This document shows positions 2,883-19,915 of a stretch of 64,000 bases of DNA, piece after piece. The DNA is from a phage. The position numbers and the translations under genes are program-made. The notes under the pieces were generated by a model, which was given only the letters and a program-made list of their open reading frames with translations, had not been told where the DNA came from and searched no databases. Numbering within the stretch: the first letter of the stretch is position 1; each line of letters opens with the position of its first letter. The stretch is taken from sequence record PV730302.1, one strand, 5' to 3'.

Positions 2883-3162
2883 CTTCCACCTTCATTAGTT
2901 TTACATAACGCTCTCCGATGGCACGACCTTCAATTGAGCACGCTTCTATAGTCCGACAACTTGACATCTTCCAAGAAGCCGTAACATAGGCCCAATAGTC
3001 TTCAGAGGCCTTTACGCTGGGTCTACTCATTTGTGCATAAACAGGCATCGCACTACTAGCAAATGCATCCATCAATTTATCGTTGGTGTTATTTGCTAGT
3101 GAAACTGTAGGGCTTAAACATCCCGCCATAAGGATACAAGCCGCTGTACGGAAAATATCCAT
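2869..3162 (-). CDS. hypothetical protein, possible signal peptide or lipoprotein
   Basis: ORF track 97 aa; N-terminal hydrophobic stretch ending ...LMAGC. Confidence 0.4.
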   Translation of the reverse strand: MDIFRTAACILMAGCLSPTVSLANNTNDKLMDAFASSAMPVYAQMSRPSVKASEDYWAYVTASWKMSSCRTIEACSIEGRAIGERYVKLMKVEDEVQ

Positions 3163-3254
3163 ACAAAAGTCCTTTGTTGTTTTATACTATTTGCCTTTCG
3201 GCCTTAACCGATAGCGATTACCAAAAGCTAAAGCTCTACGGTTAGTATTATTAT

Positions 3255-3533
3255 TTATAGCTTTTTAAGCTTACGACAATAAGAATAGAACACGTCGTTA
3301 AAATTATGCTCAACCCAATTCCTCTGTATAGGCGAGGTAATGGAAAGCATATAATGAGCTTTAATTAAATCCATCCCATTTTTATTAGGACATTCTTTAT
3401 TATTAGCATTATACGTCGCTGCTACAACCTCTATCTCTCTTTTGTAAGCCACATCATCCATGATAGGCGAAAGAACAATATAAGAAATAGCCACAGCGAA
3501 CGCTAGAATTAAAATCTTTGAATTTAGGTCCAT
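3255..3533 (-). CDS. small membrane or secreted protein
   Basis: ORF track 92 aa; N-terminal hydrophobic helix. Confidence 0.45.
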   Translation of the reverse strand: MDLNSKILILAFAVAISYIVLSPIMDDVAYKREIEVVAATYNANNKECPNKNGMDLIKAHYMLSITSPIQRNWVEHNFNDVFYSYCRKLKKL

Positions 3534-3540
3534 AGTACCC

Positions 3541-4113
3541 TCAACTCGTTATTTCTATCCAGTGCTTCCTGCACAATGACACGTAAGAATCGTTGCCACC
3601 TATAGAAACTTGGGCTCCGTCCTTAATTGCAATACCATCTTGGATACGAGCCGTCATAGTAGCTTTACGGCCGCAATGGCACACACCTTTGTACTCAACG
3701 AGTTTATCTGCTGTAGCGAGTAATTCAGCAGAGCCAGGAAACAGTTTACCCTGAAAATCAGTTCTTAGCCCATAGCACATAACTGGAACATTATAATTGT
3801 CTACTATCTTTGCCAGTTGTTTTATCTGTGCAGGTTCTAAGAACTGTGCTTCATCCACAAATACACAGTGGATATCTTTTTGAGATTCAGCCCAACGATA
3901 GAACTCGTATAGGTCCATATCCGGAGTCACGGCATTAGCCTCTTGACTAATCCCTATACGAGACGAAATGCTATGGCTTGATTCTCTATTGTCTATCGCA
4001 GGCTTTAAAAGGAGTACGCCCATACCGCGTTCTTTGTAGTTATGAGCCGCTGTTAGCAATGAAGCGGTCTTCCCAGAATTCATCGCCGCATAGTGAAAAT
4101 AAAGTTGAGCCAT
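3541..4113 (-). CDS. tk: thymidine kinase
   Basis: 190 aa; P-loop MNSGKTASLL, C-terminal Cys cluster CHCGRKA...LCRKH; size matches T4 Tk. Confidence 0.9.
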   Translation of the reverse strand: MAQLYFHYAAMNSGKTASLLTAAHNYKERGMGVLLLKPAIDNRESSHSISSRIGISQEANAVTPDMDLYEFYRWAESQKDIHCVFVDEAQFLEPAQIKQLAKIVDNYNVPVMCYGLRTDFQGKLFPGSAELLATADKLVEYKGVCHCGRKATMTARIQDGIAIKDGAQVSIGGNDSYVSLCRKHWIEITS

Positions 4114-4122
4114 ATTACCTTC

Positions 4123-4329
4123 TTAAAGACTATTTACATAAGCAATTAATTCATTTTCTTTCTCATCAAATCGATTAGCAAATTCTTCCAGATGGTCGGC
4201 ATCTATAGGGCCATATTCATCATAAAAAGAATTTGCTTCTGCATGCTCATCTAGAAGTTCATGGATAAGCTCAAACAATTTATCTTTCTGCTCTTTACTC
4301 AGACTCATAACCATTGTACCTTTAAGCAA
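4123..4329 (-). CDS. hypothetical small acidic protein
   Basis: ORF track 68 aa. Confidence 0.35.
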   Translation of the reverse strand: MLKGTMVMSLSKEQKDKLFELIHELLDEHAEANSFYDEYGPIDADHLEEFANRFDEKENELIAYVNSL

Positions 4330-4517
4330 TATTCTTCAACATGCTGTTTGCGTTTATTTTTATCTATAAAAGTATATTCAACATATTCACCAATATACCA
4401 TTTATCGGTGTTATGTTGACTTTTTATAGGGCATTTAGTTACTCGGGTTTCGGACCAGTGTCGAATAATTTCCGCTTTATTTTTAGGGTCAAACGGATGC
4501 GGGTAATGGGCTTTCAT
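4305..4517 (-). CDS. hypothetical protein
   Basis: ORF track 70 aa. Confidence 0.4.
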   Translation of the reverse strand: MKAHYPHPFDPKNKAEIIRHWSETRVTKCPIKSQHNTDKWYIGEYVEYTFIDKNKRKQHVEEYCLKVQWL

Positions 4518-4956
4518 AATCTACCACCACTAAATTAATATCAGGAGTAAACAAATTAATCAATTGATAAACCTTGTCCCAATCACCACCAGCAATACCA
4601 CAACCGATGCGAGGGATATAAATTCTTGGTTTAAACAAAAGACCCTTTGCGGTACGGTTTAATTCTATCATACAGTTTACTAAAGCACCGTAATCAAGAT
4701 TAGGGCCCGGTTCGTATTGGGTGTATAAATTATAGCAAATTTGGCCCTTATTACCTGTGGCTTGAGTAAACGTGCCAAGTTTTTCCAAATGGCCTAAATA
4801 AGTGGTTTTATCGATAGCGAGAATAGGCGGATAAGCCTTAGCCAATTGCCCAGCTACACCTGAACCCATTGTATGGAAACAGTTACACCCGTGAGCAACA
4901 TTATTACCTTGAAGAAACAGGGCGACGATATCGCCCTTAATATAATCAATAATCAT
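4489..4956 (-). CDS. macro-domain-like protein (putative ADP-ribose binding or hydrolase)
   Basis: 155 aa; N-terminal GDI...GNNVAHGCNC...GSGVAGQL resembles the macro-domain GDI/NAAN/GGGV motifs (pattern recognition, not computed). Confidence 0.5.
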   Translation of the reverse strand: MIIDYIKGDIVALFLQGNNVAHGCNCFHTMGSGVAGQLAKAYPPILAIDKTTYLGHLEKLGTFTQATGNKGQICYNLYTQYEPGPNLDYGALVNCMIELNRTAKGLLFKPRIYIPRIGCGIAGGDWDKVYQLINLFTPDINLVVVDYESPLPASV

Positions 4957-5309
4957 TTAGAGTTTAGTCCTCGGTTGTAAGAGTCAACGAGTCTGTCTAC
5001 CATAGACGCGCACATTTCTTTGTACTTTTTATCAGATGGAATACATTCAGTAACGTTTAGACGTTGCTCGTATCTTTTAGAAAGAGTTTTCTCTTTCATT
5101 CGGCGATGCTCTACGTCATTCTGGCCATCTTTAAAAGCAGCTGTGATTTTTGAACTGAATTCGATAATGCATTCAGTATTACTCGGATGACAATAATCTT
5201 TTGCTGTACGGGTAGCATACTCGACAATTGAATTATTACTATCATAAACTTGTGACGCTAATACTCCCGGAGCAATCAACATAAGCGCTATAGTCATCTG
5301 CTTAATCAT
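4953..5309 (-). CDS. secreted hypothetical protein
   Basis: 118 aa; N-terminal signal-like MIKQMTIALMLIAPGVLAS. Confidence 0.5.
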   Translation of the reverse strand: MIKQMTIALMLIAPGVLASQVYDSNNSIVEYATRTAKDYCHPSNTECIIEFSSKITAAFKDGQNDVEHRRMKEKTLSKRYEQRLNVTECIPSDKKYKEMCASMVDRLVDSYNRGLNSK

Positions 5310-5849
5310 TTAATATACCGCCTCAAACATCTTTTTAGATTTTAGATAATTGGCCTTTTCTAGAACTTCAGAAGCATATTTACTGCCTACTTTGACGTTC
5401 CAGCCCGCATTATAAGAAGCAATCGCTTTTCTCAGGTCACCTTTGTGAACATCAATCCAATAAGACAGTTCAATGTAGGCCCAAGAGGCACTGTTCTGTC
5501 GTTTTTGGACCATACGGATTATTTCTTTATCAGACATCTTCCAACCTACCTGTTGAACACGACTTCTTAACGTAGGCAAGTAATTTTGGAACATGCCATA
5601 AGCATGGTGCTTATCTTTATTTAAACCCTGATTAATTCCGGCGGATGATTCCTGCCATAGTAATCCGGCCATGATATATCCTAATCCTTTTTGATTAGGG
5701 TTTTCTTTGAACTTTCCCGACTTTTGGTATTGTTCACCGAAAGCATACGCATAATGTAAATTATCGAGTTGTTCATTACTGAAAGTAGGCTCTACGCTAT
5801 GGGCAGACATACTAACTGTCAATAGTAAAGTGGCTAATACTTTTTTCAT
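5310..5849 (-). CDS. secreted lytic-transglycosylase-like (SLT domain) protein
   Basis: 179 aa; signal peptide MKKVLATLLLTVSMSAHS; motifs LLWQESS, GMFQ, SYNAGW resemble the SLT catalytic signature. Confidence 0.55.
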   Translation of the reverse strand: MKKVLATLLLTVSMSAHSVEPTFSNEQLDNLHYAYAFGEQYQKSGKFKENPNQKGLGYIMAGLLWQESSAGINQGLNKDKHHAYGMFQNYLPTLRSRVQQVGWKMSDKEIIRMVQKRQNSASWAYIELSYWIDVHKGDLRKAIASYNAGWNVKVGSKYASEVLEKANYLKSKKMFEAVY

Positions 5850-5861
5850 GAGACCTCATTA

Positions 5862-6320
5862 TTAAAGATAGATTACTTTCGTGCTGGTTTTACCTTCTAA
5901 ACGTTTAGAGTTAACAAATGCCATACGACATTTAAGGGAATATCCTTTATCAGGATGCTTACGGTCTACTGTCATACCCAACCATAAGGTTTTATCGGTA
6001 ATTTCTAGACGCAATGGGCGATACACTTTACCAGGGACAATTTCGGATTCTACATCAGGCAGAGGTTCCTGGATTAAAAATTCATGGATTTCTTTAACAT
6101 GGTTATGGAGTTGCTTGAATAAAGCAAAAACGTATTTTTCGTCGATTTCACGTTGGATAGCACGGTCCAACAAGTGATTAGAGTACTTAATAAAGAAGGC
6201 TGGGACTCCGCTCTTGATGGCGGCTTTTTTGATGGACGTATTCAGTTCACGGAATTCGGTTTCGAACTGACGACGTAATTTATTGCGGCGGATGAATACT
6301 TCTGAATTAATTTCTGACAT
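5862..6320 (-). CDS. regB: RegB site-specific endoribonuclease
   Basis: 152 aa; N-terminus ...EVFIRRNKLRR...HLLDRAIQREIDE matches remembered T4 RegB; early promoter cassette upstream. Confidence 0.85.
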   Translation of the reverse strand: MSEINSEVFIRRNKLRRQFETEFRELNTSIKKAAIKSGVPAFFIKYSNHLLDRAIQREIDEKYVFALFKQLHNHVKEIHEFLIQEPLPDVESEIVPGKVYRPLRLEITDKTLWLGMTVDRKHPDKGYSLKCRMAFVNSKRLEGKTSTKVIYL

Positions 6321-6338
6321 TTTGTAATCTCCTGTAGT

Positions 6339-6377
6339 TGATAGGTCTATAGTACCACGTCTACAGGAGATGTAAAC
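6339..6377 (-). promoter_or_regulatory. early promoter/stem-loop cassette upstream of regB
   Basis: minus sense GTTTAC-AT-CTCCTGTAG...TACTATAGACCTATCAA-CTACAGGAG-ATTACAAA-ATG. Confidence 0.7.
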
Positions 6378-6381
6378 TGCT

Positions 6382-6591
6382 TTATTCTTGGAATGGGGTA
6401 AGTTTTCCAGCAGCTGAACAAATTTCTACCAGTACAGGGTAAAACTCTTTCACTTGTTCAAGGCGTTGGGCTGCATACTGTACTTCACCTTCTTCGAGAC
6501 AAGCCATTTGGTCGTCAAGCAAGTATTTGTGGTAGCCAGTACAGGCTTCACCGATGATACGCTGGAAATCTTGTAAACTTTCAATTTTCAT
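6382..6591 (-). CDS. hypothetical protein
   Basis: ORF track (start moved to internal MKIESL giving an ATGA overlap with the upstream ORF). Confidence 0.45.
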   Translation of the reverse strand: MKIESLQDFQRIIGEACTGYHKYLLDDQMACLEEGEVQYAAQRLEQVKEFYPVLVEICSAAGKLTPFQE

Positions 6592-6869
6592 CAGTATTTT
6601 TCCTCGGGTTGGAAAACGGAACGACACGCCCACATGCTTGCTTCTTTCAGACGGTCAATTGCATTACGAATCTGGGTGATGCGTTCATGAGCCTGGTCTA
6701 GTTCTTGTTCAGAAACCTCTTCGGTATCTAAGTTCATATAATGAGTAACATGTTCTTCTTCCAGAGCTTTAAACATTAACCCAAGACGAACTTCAGCATC
6801 TTTGATAGCGTTTACTTTACCGATTTTATCGTCGGTATGCGGCTTATAACCCTTGATATCTTCAATCAT
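6591..6869 (-). CDS. hypothetical protein
   Basis: ORF track 92 aa. Confidence 0.45.
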   Translation of the reverse strand: MIEDIKGYKPHTDDKIGKVNAIKDAEVRLGLMFKALEEEHVTHYMNLDTEEVSEQELDQAHERITQIRNAIDRLKEASMWACRSVFQPEEKY

Positions 6870-7084
6870 TTCACTTCCTCGCCAGTTGCGATATCATATT
6901 CTACCAAACGAAGGCCTTCAGTCCAACCTTGCACGGAGATATAGGTAGTCGGGTAAATCATTTCTTTACCATTCCACCGACCGCCATCCCAGACTTCCAG
7001 AAAGTCTTGTTCACCTGGTCCATTAAGCCATTCAACAAATCTTTTCAGAGCTTCTTCAGAACCTTCAATTGTCAATTTAGACAT
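6866..7084 (-). CDS. hypothetical protein
   Basis: ORF track 72 aa. Confidence 0.4.
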   Translation of the reverse strand: MSKLTIEGSEEALKRFVEWLNGPGEQDFLEVWDGGRWNGKEMIYPTTYISVQGWTEGLRLVEYDIATGEEVK

Positions 7085-7373
7085 ATTTTTTCCAATCAGA
7101 AATCATATGAATCTCTTGGTCATAAGTCAAGAGACTACGAGCAATAATACCCTTACAAGGCCCTGAGATGAACTCGAGAGTGAAGTAAGGAACCTGTTTC
7201 ATTAATCGGATACTAGGAGCATGACATCTAAAACGAGAGCCCTTAAAGGGCCCTGTCATGAATACATATTCCAATGGGTAGAAATAAGCATATTCGAAAT
7301 TTGCAGTAAGGTCCTCTCTTCGAACCTTACGTGAGAAATAACAGAACTCAAAAAGTTCTTCATCAGTCATCAT
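7077..7373 (-). CDS. hypothetical protein
   Basis: ORF track (listed 7077-7421; internal start MMTDEEL avoids overlap). Confidence 0.45.
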   Translation of the reverse strand: MMTDEELFEFCYFSRKVRREDLTANFEYAYFYPLEYVFMTGPFKGSRFRCHAPSIRLMKQVPYFTLEFISGPCKGIIARSLLTYDQEIHMISDWKKYV

Positions 7374-7897
7374 TGCATTCCTATCACAAAGAACAGAGGC
7401 AAAGGCTTGTCGCCTTGGCACATAAATTTATTAATCATTACCTGGTAAGCTTCATAGAACTTATCCATCGCTGGAAGGCGCATTGGCTCTTCGATAATAA
7501 TCAATAATCGAGTAACAGATAGTCCACGATACTTATGGAAATTGTCTTCATCAAGGAAACTGCGCACAGTATCATAGACAACAAAACCAGGACCTTCGAC
7601 TTGGAGATGTGGGTGTGCCTTAGAAACCTGTTTTATTACATTACAAATTTCTCGCGAGCGATGCGAAGAACTCGACATAACAATCACATCATTACCCTTG
7701 GAAACCCAATCAGCGGCGAACTGAGCAAGGGCACTTGTTTTACCTGTTTGGCGTCCGCCATCAAGTCGAAGAGTACCAAACTCTTGCATTCTTGAAGCAG
7801 GTTCATACCATGTGTATTGGTCTGAGTCTAAACGTTCAATGGCGCGTTCAGCGAAGGCGTGCATTAAGGTTAGATAAATGGGAGTTAAAAATTTCAT
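7370..7897 (-). CDS. P-loop NTPase-like protein
   Basis: 175 aa; Walker A GRQTGKTS. Confidence 0.5.
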   Translation of the reverse strand: MKFLTPIYLTLMHAFAERAIERLDSDQYTWYEPASRMQEFGTLRLDGGRQTGKTSALAQFAADWVSKGNDVIVMSSSSHRSREICNVIKQVSKAHPHLQVEGPGFVVYDTVRSFLDEDNFHKYRGLSVTRLLIIIEEPMRLPAMDKFYEAYQVMINKFMCQGDKPLPLFFVIGMQ

Positions 7898-7932
7898 AGT
7901 AGTCTCTTAGTGGTGGGGCCATTCCTTGGCAC

Positions 7933-7961
7933 ATAATTCGTCCATGTATCCGTATGTAAAC
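7933..7961 (-). promoter_or_regulatory. possible early promoter (GTTTAC -35, weak -10) without the conserved cassette core
   Basis: minus-strand GTTTAC-N17-AATTAT upstream of ORF 7370-7897. Confidence 0.3.
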
Positions 7962-8057
7962 CCTTTACCGCACTTGGGCTCGACCTTATTACAGGTAGGG
8001 AAAGGTCCATCACTCAGAGGACGCGACGTTCATGAGGAGAGGGCCGGCTTGCCTTTA

Positions 8058-10478: not shown

Positions 10479-10486
10479 ATTTATAT
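10479..10486 (-). promoter_or_regulatory. late promoter TATAAATA for gene e, adjoining the SD-sequestering hairpin
   Basis: minus sense TATAAATA-CCTCCT-ATACTC-AGGAGG-TATT-ATG. Confidence 0.7.
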
Positions 10487-10932
10487 CAAAAGAGCGAATC
10501 TAAAACCTTAAACATCGACGGGCCCATGACATATTCCCATTGCGGACGTTTAATCAAAGCGAACGCATCGAATTCAGGAATAGTACGACCATCAGGGAAC
10601 GTATGGTAAGCCGTACATTTGCAATCCTTGAACTGCTCGTGTTCCACAGGCACTGTATATAAGAACAGATGTAGATTCTTATTGCTTGAATATTTGAACT
10701 CACCCAGGTCTTTCAGGAATGCAGGATCGTATGCTGTGAATCCAATCTCTTCTTCGGTTTCGCGCATTGCCGCTTGAATAGGCTCTTCGCCTGGTTCGAC
10801 ATGGCCTTTAGGAATGTCCCATTTATGACGCATGTTCTCTGGATTACGAGAGCCTGTTACACGACCCATGACCAGTTCTTTATCAACGGTCATGAACAAA
10901 ATACCTGCCGATAATTCCTTAGCTTTCTTACC
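10486..10932 (-). CDS. nudE: Nudix hydrolase
   Basis: Nudix box GHVEPGEEPIQAAMRETEEEIGF; start set at internal MGKKAKEL (149 aa, T4 NudE is about 151). Confidence 0.8.
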   Translation of the reverse strand, partial: GKKAKELSAGILFMTVDKELVMGRVTGSRNPENMRHKWDIPKGHVEPGEEPIQAAMRETEEEIGFTAYDPAFLKDLGEFKYSSNKNLHLFLYTVPVEHEQFKDCKCTAYHTFPDGRTIPEFDAFALIKRPQWEYVMGPSMFKVLDSLF

Positions 10933-11164
10933 CATCGTCTCGTTCCCATGATTGTTTAAAAATATCTTGCATAATAATTTGAAGTCTATTTTCTGATGAT
11001 GGACTTTCACTATCAGACACTTGAAGCATATAGTCACCAATAGGACAGAACATATCCATATCGCTTTCTAAGTCTTCTTTAATTTTCTCTTCTGATGTTC
11101 CGGTATCATAGGAATACAGATAAGAATCACATGACTCAGATTTAATATAAATTGCAATACTCAT
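10928..11164 (-). CDS. hypothetical small acidic protein
   Basis: ORF track 78 aa. Confidence 0.35.
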   Translation of the reverse strand: MSIAIYIKSESCDSYLYSYDTGTSEEKIKEDLESDMDMFCPIGDYMLQVSDSESPSSENRLQIIMQDIFKQSWERDDG

Positions 11165-19758: not shown

Positions 19759-19833
19759 TGGTATCCCGCCCTGGGATCGAACCAGGACCGCAAACTTAGA
19801 AGGATCGTATGCTATCCATTACACCAGCGGGAC
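19759..19833 (-). tRNA. tRNA-Arg (anticodon TCT), CCA encoded
   Basis: manual fold of minus strand: 7-bp acceptor stem, T-loop TTCGATC, anticodon loop CTTCTAA. Confidence 0.85.
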
Positions 19834-19838
19834 ATAGT

Positions 19839-19915
19839 TGGTGACCCGGACCAGATTTGAACTGGTAACCTTTCCCTTATGAGGGGACTGCTTCTAACCA
19901 TTGAGCTACAGGGCC
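19839..19915 (-). tRNA. tRNA with CAT anticodon (elongator Met or lysidine-type Ile), CCA encoded
   Basis: manual fold: acceptor GGCCCTG, T-arm ACCAG-TTCAAAT-CTGGT, anticodon loop CTCATAA; 5 nt from tRNA-Arg. Confidence 0.8.

What the first reader, a model, noticed from the sequence alone, without database searches (positions are those of the whole stretch)
4489..4956. Macro-domain-like protein in the early region
The N-terminus (IKGDIVALFLQGNNVAHGCNCFHTMGSGVAGQLAKAYP) resembles the macro-domain ADP-ribose-binding signature. Phage macro domains can reverse ADP-ribosylation-based defences or degrade ADP-ribose-derived immune signals. Its position next to tk within an early operon fits a host-takeover or anti-defence role.
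Basis: inference. Interest (0 to 1): 0.5.

Follow-up and report, generated by a model that had tools for sequence, protein, structure and literature searches.

The report
Phage macrodomain Tk.4 (AdfM) ortholog

Summary

The window comes from a T4-like Dhakavirus (95-98% DNA identity to PSD9, IME08, QL01). The gene is the syntenic ortholog of T4 tk.4: 53% identity over the full length, in the order tk.3-tk.4-vs.

A 2025 preprint shows that deleting T4 tk.4 sensitises T4 to DarTG2, and renames the gene adfM. The best explanation is therefore a stand-alone "orphan antitoxin" that removes DarT2-made ADP-ribose from thymidine in phage ssDNA.

One nuance comes from this work. The catalytic lysine of DarG (K80) and TARG1 (K84) is an invariant glutamine here (Q80), as in SCO6735 and BT1257. 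SCO6735 is a proven thymidine-ADPr DNA hydrolase that needs that Gln. The PhiKZ protein also called AdfM is a lysine-type, DarG-like protein, only about 21% identical to this one. Two sub-lineages therefore share one name.

No biochemistry exists yet for the Tk.4 type.

The parts
4489..4956 (-). tk.4/adfM ortholog: 155-aa single-domain macrodomain protein
4882..4893 (-). H22-G23-C24-N25 motif. Asn25 corresponds to SCO6735 Asn27 and the conserved DarG Asn. His22 corresponds to SCO6735 His24 and TARG1 His32.
   Evidence: H22, G23 and N25 are invariant in 101 homologs. The role of Asn27 is taken from PMC9411070. The PhiKZ AdfM N23A mutant has reduced activity (PMC13309987).
4852..4866 (-). G31-S-G33-V-A35: the GxG loop of the ADP-ribose pocket (first glycine-rich loop)
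   Evidence: G33 and A35 are invariant and G31 is nearly invariant. The loop aligns to MGAGIA of TARG1 and MGKGIA of DarG.
4717..4731 (-). N76-L-Y-T-Q80 motif. Gln80 occupies the position of the catalytic Lys of DarG (K80) and TARG1 (K84) and of the essential Gln85 of SCO6735.
   Evidence: N76, Y78 and Q80 are invariant in 101 homologs and in 80/80 cellular relatives, where this motif was not used for retrieval. The codons were read directly.
4579..4614 (-). P115-R-I-G118-C-G120-I-A-G-G-D-W126: the phosphate-binding loop
   Evidence: P115, G118 and G120 are invariant. The same PRIGCGxAGGxW motif occurs in BT1257 and SCO6735. The SCO6735 G128E mutant loses activity (PMC9411070).
4968..4972 (-). 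Candidate Shine-Dalgarno GAGGA, 11 nt upstream of the ATG and inside the 3' end of vs. The vs stop and the tk.4 start overlap as ATGA (4953-4956).
   Evidence: Read directly from the sequence and the ORF coordinates. The ribosome-binding role is an inference.

Best explanation
The ORF encodes the Dhakavirus ortholog of T4 Tk.4 (AdfM). It is a stand-alone, single-domain macrodomain ADP-ribosyl-glycohydrolase of the ALC1/TARG1/DarG class. It is probably made before or during DNA replication, from the tightly packed regB-vs.1-vs-tk.4-tk.3-tk.2-tk gene string. It then acts as an orphan antitoxin against host DarTG2. DarT2 ADP-ribosylates the second thymidine of TNTC motifs in single-stranded phage DNA, which blocks replication; the macrodomain hydrolyses the thymine-ribose bond, releasing free ADP-ribose and restoring the DNA. 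Chemically it should work like SCO6735 rather than like DarG. It has no catalytic lysine. Instead an invariant Gln80, held in place by Asn25, would position the distal ribose for attack by an activated water, while the two glycine-rich loops bind the diphosphate. What is shown here: macro fold, class, orthology, conserved motifs. What is shown in the literature for the T4 ortholog: genetic requirement against DarTG2. What is inferred: DNA de-ADP-ribosylation by this protein, the Gln-dependent mechanism, and the timing of expression.

For: Orthology: 53% identity over the full length to T4 Tk.4, the same tk.3-tk.4-vs-vs.1-regB order, and a single macro gene in the window.

Function of the ortholog: transposon insertions in T4 tk.4 are depleted only on DarTG2 hosts, and a clean knockout is sensitised (10.1101/2025.11.20.689424).

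Chemistry: Q80 aligns with SCO6735 Gln85, DarG K80 and TARG1 K84. It is invariant in 101 phage-type homologs and in 80/80 cellular relatives. SCO6735 cleaves T-ADPr DNA and rescues DarT toxicity, and its Q85A and N27S mutants are dead or nearly dead (PMC9411070).
Against: No enzymatic assay exists for any Tk.4-type protein; the T4 evidence is genetic only, and it concerns a 53%-identical ortholog in another genus. The two lysines that position DNA in SCO6735 are not conserved: K34 is Ser32 here, and K89 lies in the loop that is shorter here. The protein has no net positive charge by my count of its residues, so DNA binding may differ. The genetics does not separate hydrolysis from direct inhibition of DarT2 by binding, which catalytically dead SCO6735 also shows. 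The 80 closest cellular relatives are not linked to DarT2, so the family's ancestral substrate need not be DarT2-modified DNA.
Confidence: 0.7

Rival explanations
1. It acts on small soluble ADP-ribose derivatives rather than on DNA. Candidates are ADP-ribose-1''-phosphate (as for Poa1p, the source of the database label 'phosphatase'), O-acetyl-ADP-ribose (as for TARG1/OARD1), or ADPr-derived immune signals or toxins.
Against: The only phenotype reported for the T4 ortholog is specific to DarTG2, a DNA-modifying system. The ALC1-class members DarG, TARG1 and SCO6735 all cleave T-ADPr DNA. The Nudix link fits equally well with disposal of ADP-ribose released from DNA.
Confidence: 0.12
2. It neutralises DarT2 mainly by binding and inhibiting the toxin, as an antitoxin mimic, and hydrolysis is secondary.
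For: Catalytically dead SCO6735 (Q85A), DarG (K80A) and TARG1 (K84A) all inhibit DarT in vitro, SCO6735 most strongly (PMC9411070). Other phage anti-DarT factors, AdfA and AdfB, work by binding the toxin (PMC11825919).
Against: The invariant residues are exactly the pocket and catalytic ones (H22, N25, G33, Q80, G118, G120), across phages and very diverse bacteria that have no DarT nearby. That pattern indicates selection for catalysis. The protein lacks the C-terminal DarT-binding domain of DarG: it is 155 aa and matches only positions 3-142 of the 329-position PADLOC profile.
Confidence: 0.08
3. It regulates the phage's own ADP-ribosylation (Alt, ModA, ModB targets or RNAylated proteins), or erases ADP-ribose from RNA bases such as uracil, rather than countering DarT2.
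For: T4-like phages encode their own ADP-ribosyltransferases (established knowledge). TARG1-like macrodomains, including bacterial homologues, efficiently reverse uracil ADP-ribosylation of RNA (PMC13036486). SCO6735 also removes Glu/Asp-linked protein ADP-ribose.
Against: Alt and Mod enzymes modify arginine, a linkage this macrodomain class is not known to cleave (established knowledge, not tested here). T4 carrying tk.4 is still strongly blocked by the mRNA ADP-ribosyltransferase CmdTAC (PMC11618068). tk.4 was conditionally required only with DarTG2 in the conditions reported.
Confidence: 0.06

Closest known systems
T4 Tk.4 = AdfM (anti-DarT factor Macrodomain), HIDEN-SEQ preprint 10.1101/2025.11.20.689424
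   Same: Same length (155 aa), 53% identity end to end, and the same genomic slot between tk.3 and vs. Both have the HGCNC, GSGVAG, NLYTQ and PRIGxG motifs.
   Different: A different genus (Dhakavirus against Tequatrovirus). The phosphate loop reads PRIGCGIAGGDW here and PRIGAGIGKGNW in T4. The 3' end overlaps tk.3 by 29 nt here and by 4 nt in T4. The anti-DarTG2 role has not been tested for this allele.
SCO6735 (Streptomyces coelicolor) and BT1257 (Bacteroides thetaiotaomicron) stand-alone ALC1-class macrodomains
   Different: The 'mobile loop' after the Gln is shorter: 6 residues here against 12 in BT1257. SCO6735 Lys34 and Lys89 are not conserved. Identity is only about 24-28%.
DarG antitoxin of DarTG2 (M. 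tuberculosis, T. aquaticus, T. africanus)
   Different: DarG uses Lys80 where this protein has Gln80, and has Asn where this protein has His22. DarG carries a C-terminal DarT-binding domain and sits in an operon with DarT. The NCBIfam DarG equivalog model scores 20 bits against a cutoff of 250.
PhiKZ gp104 'AdfM' of chimalliviruses (PMC13309987)
   Same: A phage-encoded stand-alone macrodomain that counters DarTG2. For gp104, removal of DarT2-made ADP-ribose from DNA was shown in vitro.
   Different: About 21% identity to the window protein. gp104 matches only DarG among solved structures (E 9.4e-25) and keeps the FPTK lysine. It is imported into a phage nucleus. It therefore looks like a separate recruitment from the DarG branch.
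Human TARG1/OARD1
   Same: The top Foldseek hit (E 8.7e-10, TM 0.76-0.86) and a similar loop length. TARG1 also cleaves T-ADPr DNA.
   Different: The TARG1 catalytic dyad Lys84/Asp125 corresponds to Gln80/Ala122 here.

Membership tests
Macro domain (Pfam PF01661) | Profile match above the curated gathering score | tested here: met
   32 bits against a cutoff of 22, E 1.3e-7, covering profile positions 2-117 of 118. 93 of 101 homologs also match.
Macro domain (Pfam PF01661) | Three-layer alpha/beta macro fold with an ADP-ribose cleft lined by two glycine-rich loops | tested here: met
ALC1/TARG1/DarG-like macrodomain class | Closer in sequence and structure to TARG1, DarG, SCO6735 and Poa1p than to MacroD, PARG or viral Mac1 types | tested here: met
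T4 Tk.4 / AdfM orthologous group | Full-length similarity to T4 Tk.4 and the conserved position between tk.3 and vs | tested here: met
   53% identity over 155/155 aa, E 9e-62. Synteny is shown. IME08 annotates the 95%-identical region as tk.4. It is the only macro gene in the window.
T4 Tk.4 / AdfM orthologous group | Confers resistance to DarTG2 | not testable with these tools
   Shown only for T4 by transposon sequencing and a clean knockout. Testing it here needs plaque assays with this allele.
SCO6735/BT1257-type (Gln-type) T-ADPr DNA hydrolases | Gln at the position of DarG K80 / TARG1 K84, supported by the conserved Asn of the HxCN motif | tested here: met
   Q80 and N25 align to SCO6735 Q85 and N27 and to the BT1257 Gln. 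Both are invariant.
SCO6735/BT1257-type (Gln-type) T-ADPr DNA hydrolases | Extended 'mobile loop' (about 5 residues longer than in DarG/TARG1) and DNA-positioning Lys34/Lys89 | tested here: not met
   There are 6 residues between the Gln and the next conserved block, against 12 in BT1257. Ser32 stands in place of Lys34. The protein therefore shares the chemistry-defining residue but is not a strict member of that subclass.
DarG antitoxin (DarTG2) | Catalytic Lys80, a C-terminal DarT-binding domain, an adjacent darT gene, and an equivalog-level profile score | tested here: not met
   Gln replaces the Lys. The protein is 155 aa and matches only the macro part of the 329/338-position DarG profiles. 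NCBIfam scores 20 bits against a cutoff of 250. The neighbours are vs and tk.3, not darT.
Poa1p-type ADP-ribose-1''-phosphate phosphatase (source of the 'phosphatase' label) | Phosphatase activity on ADPr-1''-P | not testable with these tools

The most novel reading that the evidence does not exclude
'AdfM' may be two independent inventions. T4-like phages (and many other phages, about 5% of phage records) would have recruited a widespread stand-alone bacterial macrodomain family marked by an NxYTQ motif. That family is lysine-free, has SCO6735-like chemistry and a short loop, and has no DarT partner in bacteria. Chimalliviruses would instead have recruited a true DarG-type, lysine-dependent macrodomain. 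If so, the Tk.4 type may have a broader or different substrate range (T-ADPr DNA, U-ADPr RNA, or soluble ADPr derivatives), and a different sensitivity to any host counter-measures, than DarG-derived enzymes.
Probability: 0.5. Interest if true: 0.4.

Novelty: already known. Interest (0 to 1): 0.22.

Why it matters
The result confirms that this Dhakavirus carries the T4-type anti-DarTG2 gene. That helps predict which defence systems will fail against this phage group, for example when choosing therapeutic phages or hosts. The one point that goes slightly beyond the literature read here is mechanistic. The T4-type AdfM lacks the catalytic lysine of DarG and instead has the glutamine configuration of SCO6735, whereas the PhiKZ protein of the same name is lysine-type. 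This gives a clear mutagenesis target (Q80, N25). It also suggests that DNA de-ADP-ribosylation has been recruited by phages at least twice.

Tried and rejected
- Single-sequence AlphaFold gave an unusable model (pLDDT 38.6). It was replaced by an alignment-based model.
- Sigma-70-type promoter sites were at chance level: 17 found against 16.3 expected. MotA-box matches numbered 5 window-wide against 1.74 expected. No promoter is claimed.
- I looked for DarT2 next to the 80 closest cellular relatives by tblastn with P. aeruginosa DarT2. No hit was better than E 2. Clustering the neighbouring ORFs showed no conserved partner, only antisense shadow ORFs and lineage-specific housekeeping synteny. 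The idea that the family is a disguised DarG antitoxin was rejected.
- TNTC (DarT2 motif) avoidance in the window: 2,123 observed against 2,250 +/- 45 under a first-order Markov model. The effect is weak and the null model is crude, so it is not interpreted.
- The database label 'phosphatase' was considered and rejected as a functional statement. It derives from the old A1pp domain name.
- Membership in DarG proper was rejected.

Full report
**Observation.** The window has an ATG-initiated ORF at exactly 4489..4956 on the minus strand. It sits in a head-to-tail string of minus-strand genes:
- regB (5862..6320; Pfam REGB_T4, E 6e-69)
- vs.1 (5310..5849)
- vs (4953..5309; PHROG valyl-tRNA synthetase modifier)
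- the ORF in question
- tk.3 (4305..4517; DUF7202)
- tk.2 (4123..4329; DUF7438)
- tk (3541..4113; Pfam TK, E 7e-57)

The vs stop and the ORF start overlap as ATGA. The ORF's 3' end overlaps the tk.3 start by 29 nt. The gene is therefore two genes away from tk, not adjacent to it. The tight packing fits co-transcription, but sigma-70-type and MotA-box pattern scans were not clearly above chance, so "early operon" remains an inference from knowledge of T4.

**Source.** The region 3000-7000 is 98% identical to Shigella phage PSD9 and about 95% identical to Escherichia phages AnYang and IME08. IME08 is classified as Straboviridae, Tevenvirinae, Dhakavirus, and it annotates the corresponding gene as tk.4, "phosphatase".

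**Is it a macro domain?** Yes.
- Pfam Macro scores 32 bits against a gathering score of 22, and 93 of 101 homologs also match.
- Direct sequence search of solved structures finds BT1257 (5e-9), SCO6735, Poa1p, M. tuberculosis DarG (7e-5) and TARG1.
- A profile built from 101 homologs raises these to 5.6e-21 (BT1257), 1.2e-17 (TARG1), 4.7e-17 (SCO6735), 2e-14 (Poa1p) and 1.5e-11 (DarG). SARS-CoV-2 Mac1 reaches only 2.7e-4.
- A single-sequence AlphaFold model was useless (pLDDT 38.6). With the alignment, the model has pLDDT 95.1 and pTM 0.89.

The protein therefore belongs to the ALC1/TARG1/DarG-like class.

**Orthology to T4 tk.4.** T4 Tk.4 (NP_049723; annotated "phosphatase; contains A1pp phosphatase motif") lies between tk.3 and vs. 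It is 155 aa and 53% identical to the window protein over its whole length (E 9e-62). No second macro gene exists in the window. The A1pp/macro match of tk.4 orthologs was already reported in 2006 (PMC1524935).

**What is known about the ortholog.**
- A 2025 preprint (10.1101/2025.11.20.689424) found tk.4 to be the single significant T4 gene depleted on a DarTG2-expressing host. It showed that a clean knockout is sensitised, noted the similarity to the Mtb DarG macrodomain, and named the gene adfM. No enzymology was reported.
- Earlier work had shown that T4 lacking adfA and adfN stays resistant to DarTG2, which predicted a further factor (PMC11825919).
- A 2026 paper gave the same name, AdfM, to PhiKZ gp104. 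It showed in vitro removal of DarT2-made ADP-ribose from DNA, reduced by an Asn mutation (PMC13309987).

**Active site.** Among 101 homologs the invariant positions are H22, G23, N25, G33, A35, D49, G61, N76, Y78, Q80, P115, G118 and G120. When reference proteins are aligned to this profile, Q80 falls on TARG1 K84, on DarG K80 and on the Gln of BT1257.

SCO6735 has Gln85 at this position. It efficiently cleaves thymidine-linked ADP-ribose from DNA and rescues DarT toxicity. Q85A kills it and N27S nearly kills it. A water-mediated, lysine-independent mechanism has been proposed for it (PMC9411070).

The window protein keeps the equivalents of:
- Gln85 (Q80)
- Asn27 (N25)
- His24 (H22)
- Gly126/Gly128 (G118/G120)

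It differs from SCO6735 and BT1257 in two ways. It has a short loop after the Gln: 6 residues against 12 in BT1257. It also lacks the equivalents of the DNA-positioning Lys34 (Ser32 here) and Lys89. It thus shares the chemistry-defining residue of the SCO6735 subclass but not its loop architecture.

**Two kinds of AdfM.** PhiKZ gp104, translated from the sequence printed in the paper, is about 21% identical to the window protein. Among solved structures it matches only DarG proteins (9.4e-25) and keeps the FPTK lysine. The T4-type and PhiKZ-type proteins therefore come from different branches of the class.

**Distribution.**
- Homologs occur in 2,732 of 50,697 phage records. These include T4-like, rV5-like, Felix-O1-like, Ackermannviridae, Pseudomonas, Vibrio and jumbo phages. 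They are annotated variously as phosphatase, macro domain protein, Poa1p-like, or O-acetyl-ADP-ribose deacetylase.
- A genome scan recovered at least 478 cellular relatives. The best 80 are 32-43% identical and come from Rhodobacteraceae, Verrucomicrobiota, Planctomycetota, Desulfobacterota, Bacteroidota and others.
- These 80 are mostly single-domain proteins of about 150 aa, and all carry NxYTQ. That motif was not among the retrieval patterns.
- None has a DarT2 homolog within 4 kb, and none has a conserved neighbour.

The phage gene thus looks recruited from a stand-alone bacterial macrodomain family rather than from a DarG antitoxin. In line with this, the NCBIfam DarG equivalog model scores 20 bits against a cutoff of 250. 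The PADLOC DarG model matches only over its macro part.

**Mechanism and rivals.** The best-supported reading (confidence about 0.7) is an orphan antitoxin. It would hydrolyse DarT2-made ADP-ribose from thymidine in phage ssDNA, using Gln80 and Asn25 rather than a lysine. The rivals are:
- A small-molecule ADPr-derivative hydrolase. In its favour: the similarity to Poa1p; the argument of PMC9503650; a macro-Nudix fusion relative, P0114; and a NudE-like Nudix gene at 10486..11040.
- Toxin inhibition by binding. Dead SCO6735 does this.
- Action on phage-made protein ADP-ribosylation or on RNA ADP-ribosylation. TARG1-like enzymes reverse U-ADPr, but CmdTAC still blocks T4.

None of these is excluded by computation. 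Enzymology and complementation would decide between them.

**Novelty.** However, the macro identity of tk.4 has been in the literature since 2006, and its anti-DarTG2 role since 2025. The exact protein is already in public databases at 99% identity. The only modest addition here is the Gln-type classification and the split between the two "AdfM" lineages. I did not see either point in the papers I read, but I cannot claim they are unpublished.

Noticed in passing
window 10486..11040 (-); protein P0114 (metagenome): A NudE-like Nudix hydrolase gene lies about 5.5 kb from tk.4 on the same strand (Pfam NUDIX, E 1.3e-14). A metagenomic relative of Tk.4 (P0114, 247 aa) is a macro-Nudix fusion. Together these suggest that ADP-ribose released by the macrodomain is passed on to a Nudix pyrophosphatase.
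   Followed up: partly
window 4662..4687 (-), inside the tk.4 ORF: A MotA-box-like middle-promoter pattern, TGCTTTA-N12-TAGAAT, lies inside tk.4 and points toward tk.3/tk.2/tk. Window-wide there are 5 matches against 1.74 expected, so it may be chance.
   Followed up: no
window 4919..4937 (-): A terminator-like GC-rich hairpin (AGGGCGATATCGTCGCCCT followed by GTTTCTTC) sits just after the tk.4 start codon, within the codons for KGDIVALFL. It could be chance, or it could affect translation initiation or coupling with vs.
   Followed up: no
window 4489..4517: The tk.4 3' end overlaps the tk.3 start by 29 nt. T4 has a 4-nt overlap and IME08 a 32-nt overlap. The extra C-terminal residues (about 148-155) are the only low-confidence part of the model (mean pLDDT 51).
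   Followed up: partly
proteins P0071, P0038, P0064 (other T4-like phages): Some relatives carry damaged or shortened alleles. Citrobacter phage CF1 has a 92-aa product that goes out of frame just before the NLYTQ motif. The Shigella SHFML and Citrobacter CkP1 entries start at the internal Met30 and so lack H22 and N25. These may be natural loss-of-function alleles or annotation errors.
   Followed up: partly
window 3541..8000 compared with L002 (T4 57000-65000): The gene content differs from T4 around tk.4. No tk.1 lies between tk and tk.2, and the vs.3, vs.5 and vs.6 (GrcA-like) genes of T4 are not annotated in the IME08 counterpart of this stretch.
   Followed up: no
window 19759..19915 (-): ARAGORN finds only two tRNA genes, Arg(tct) and Met(cat). 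The IME08 annotation lists three at the corresponding place (Arg, Asn, Met).
   Followed up: no
whole window: The DarT2 target motif TNTC (both strands) is slightly under-represented: 2,123 observed against 2,250 +/- 45 under a first-order Markov model, z about -2.8. The null model is crude and ignores codon usage.
   Followed up: partly
loci L003-L082 (bacterial genomes): A large family of stand-alone bacterial macrodomain proteins of about 150 aa, with invariant HGCNC, NxYTQ and GxGxAGGxW motifs, occurs in marine Rhodobacteraceae, Verrucomicrobiota, Planctomycetota, Desulfobacterota and others. It has no linked ADP-ribosyltransferase and no conserved neighbour, and its cellular role appears uncharacterised.
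   Followed up: partly
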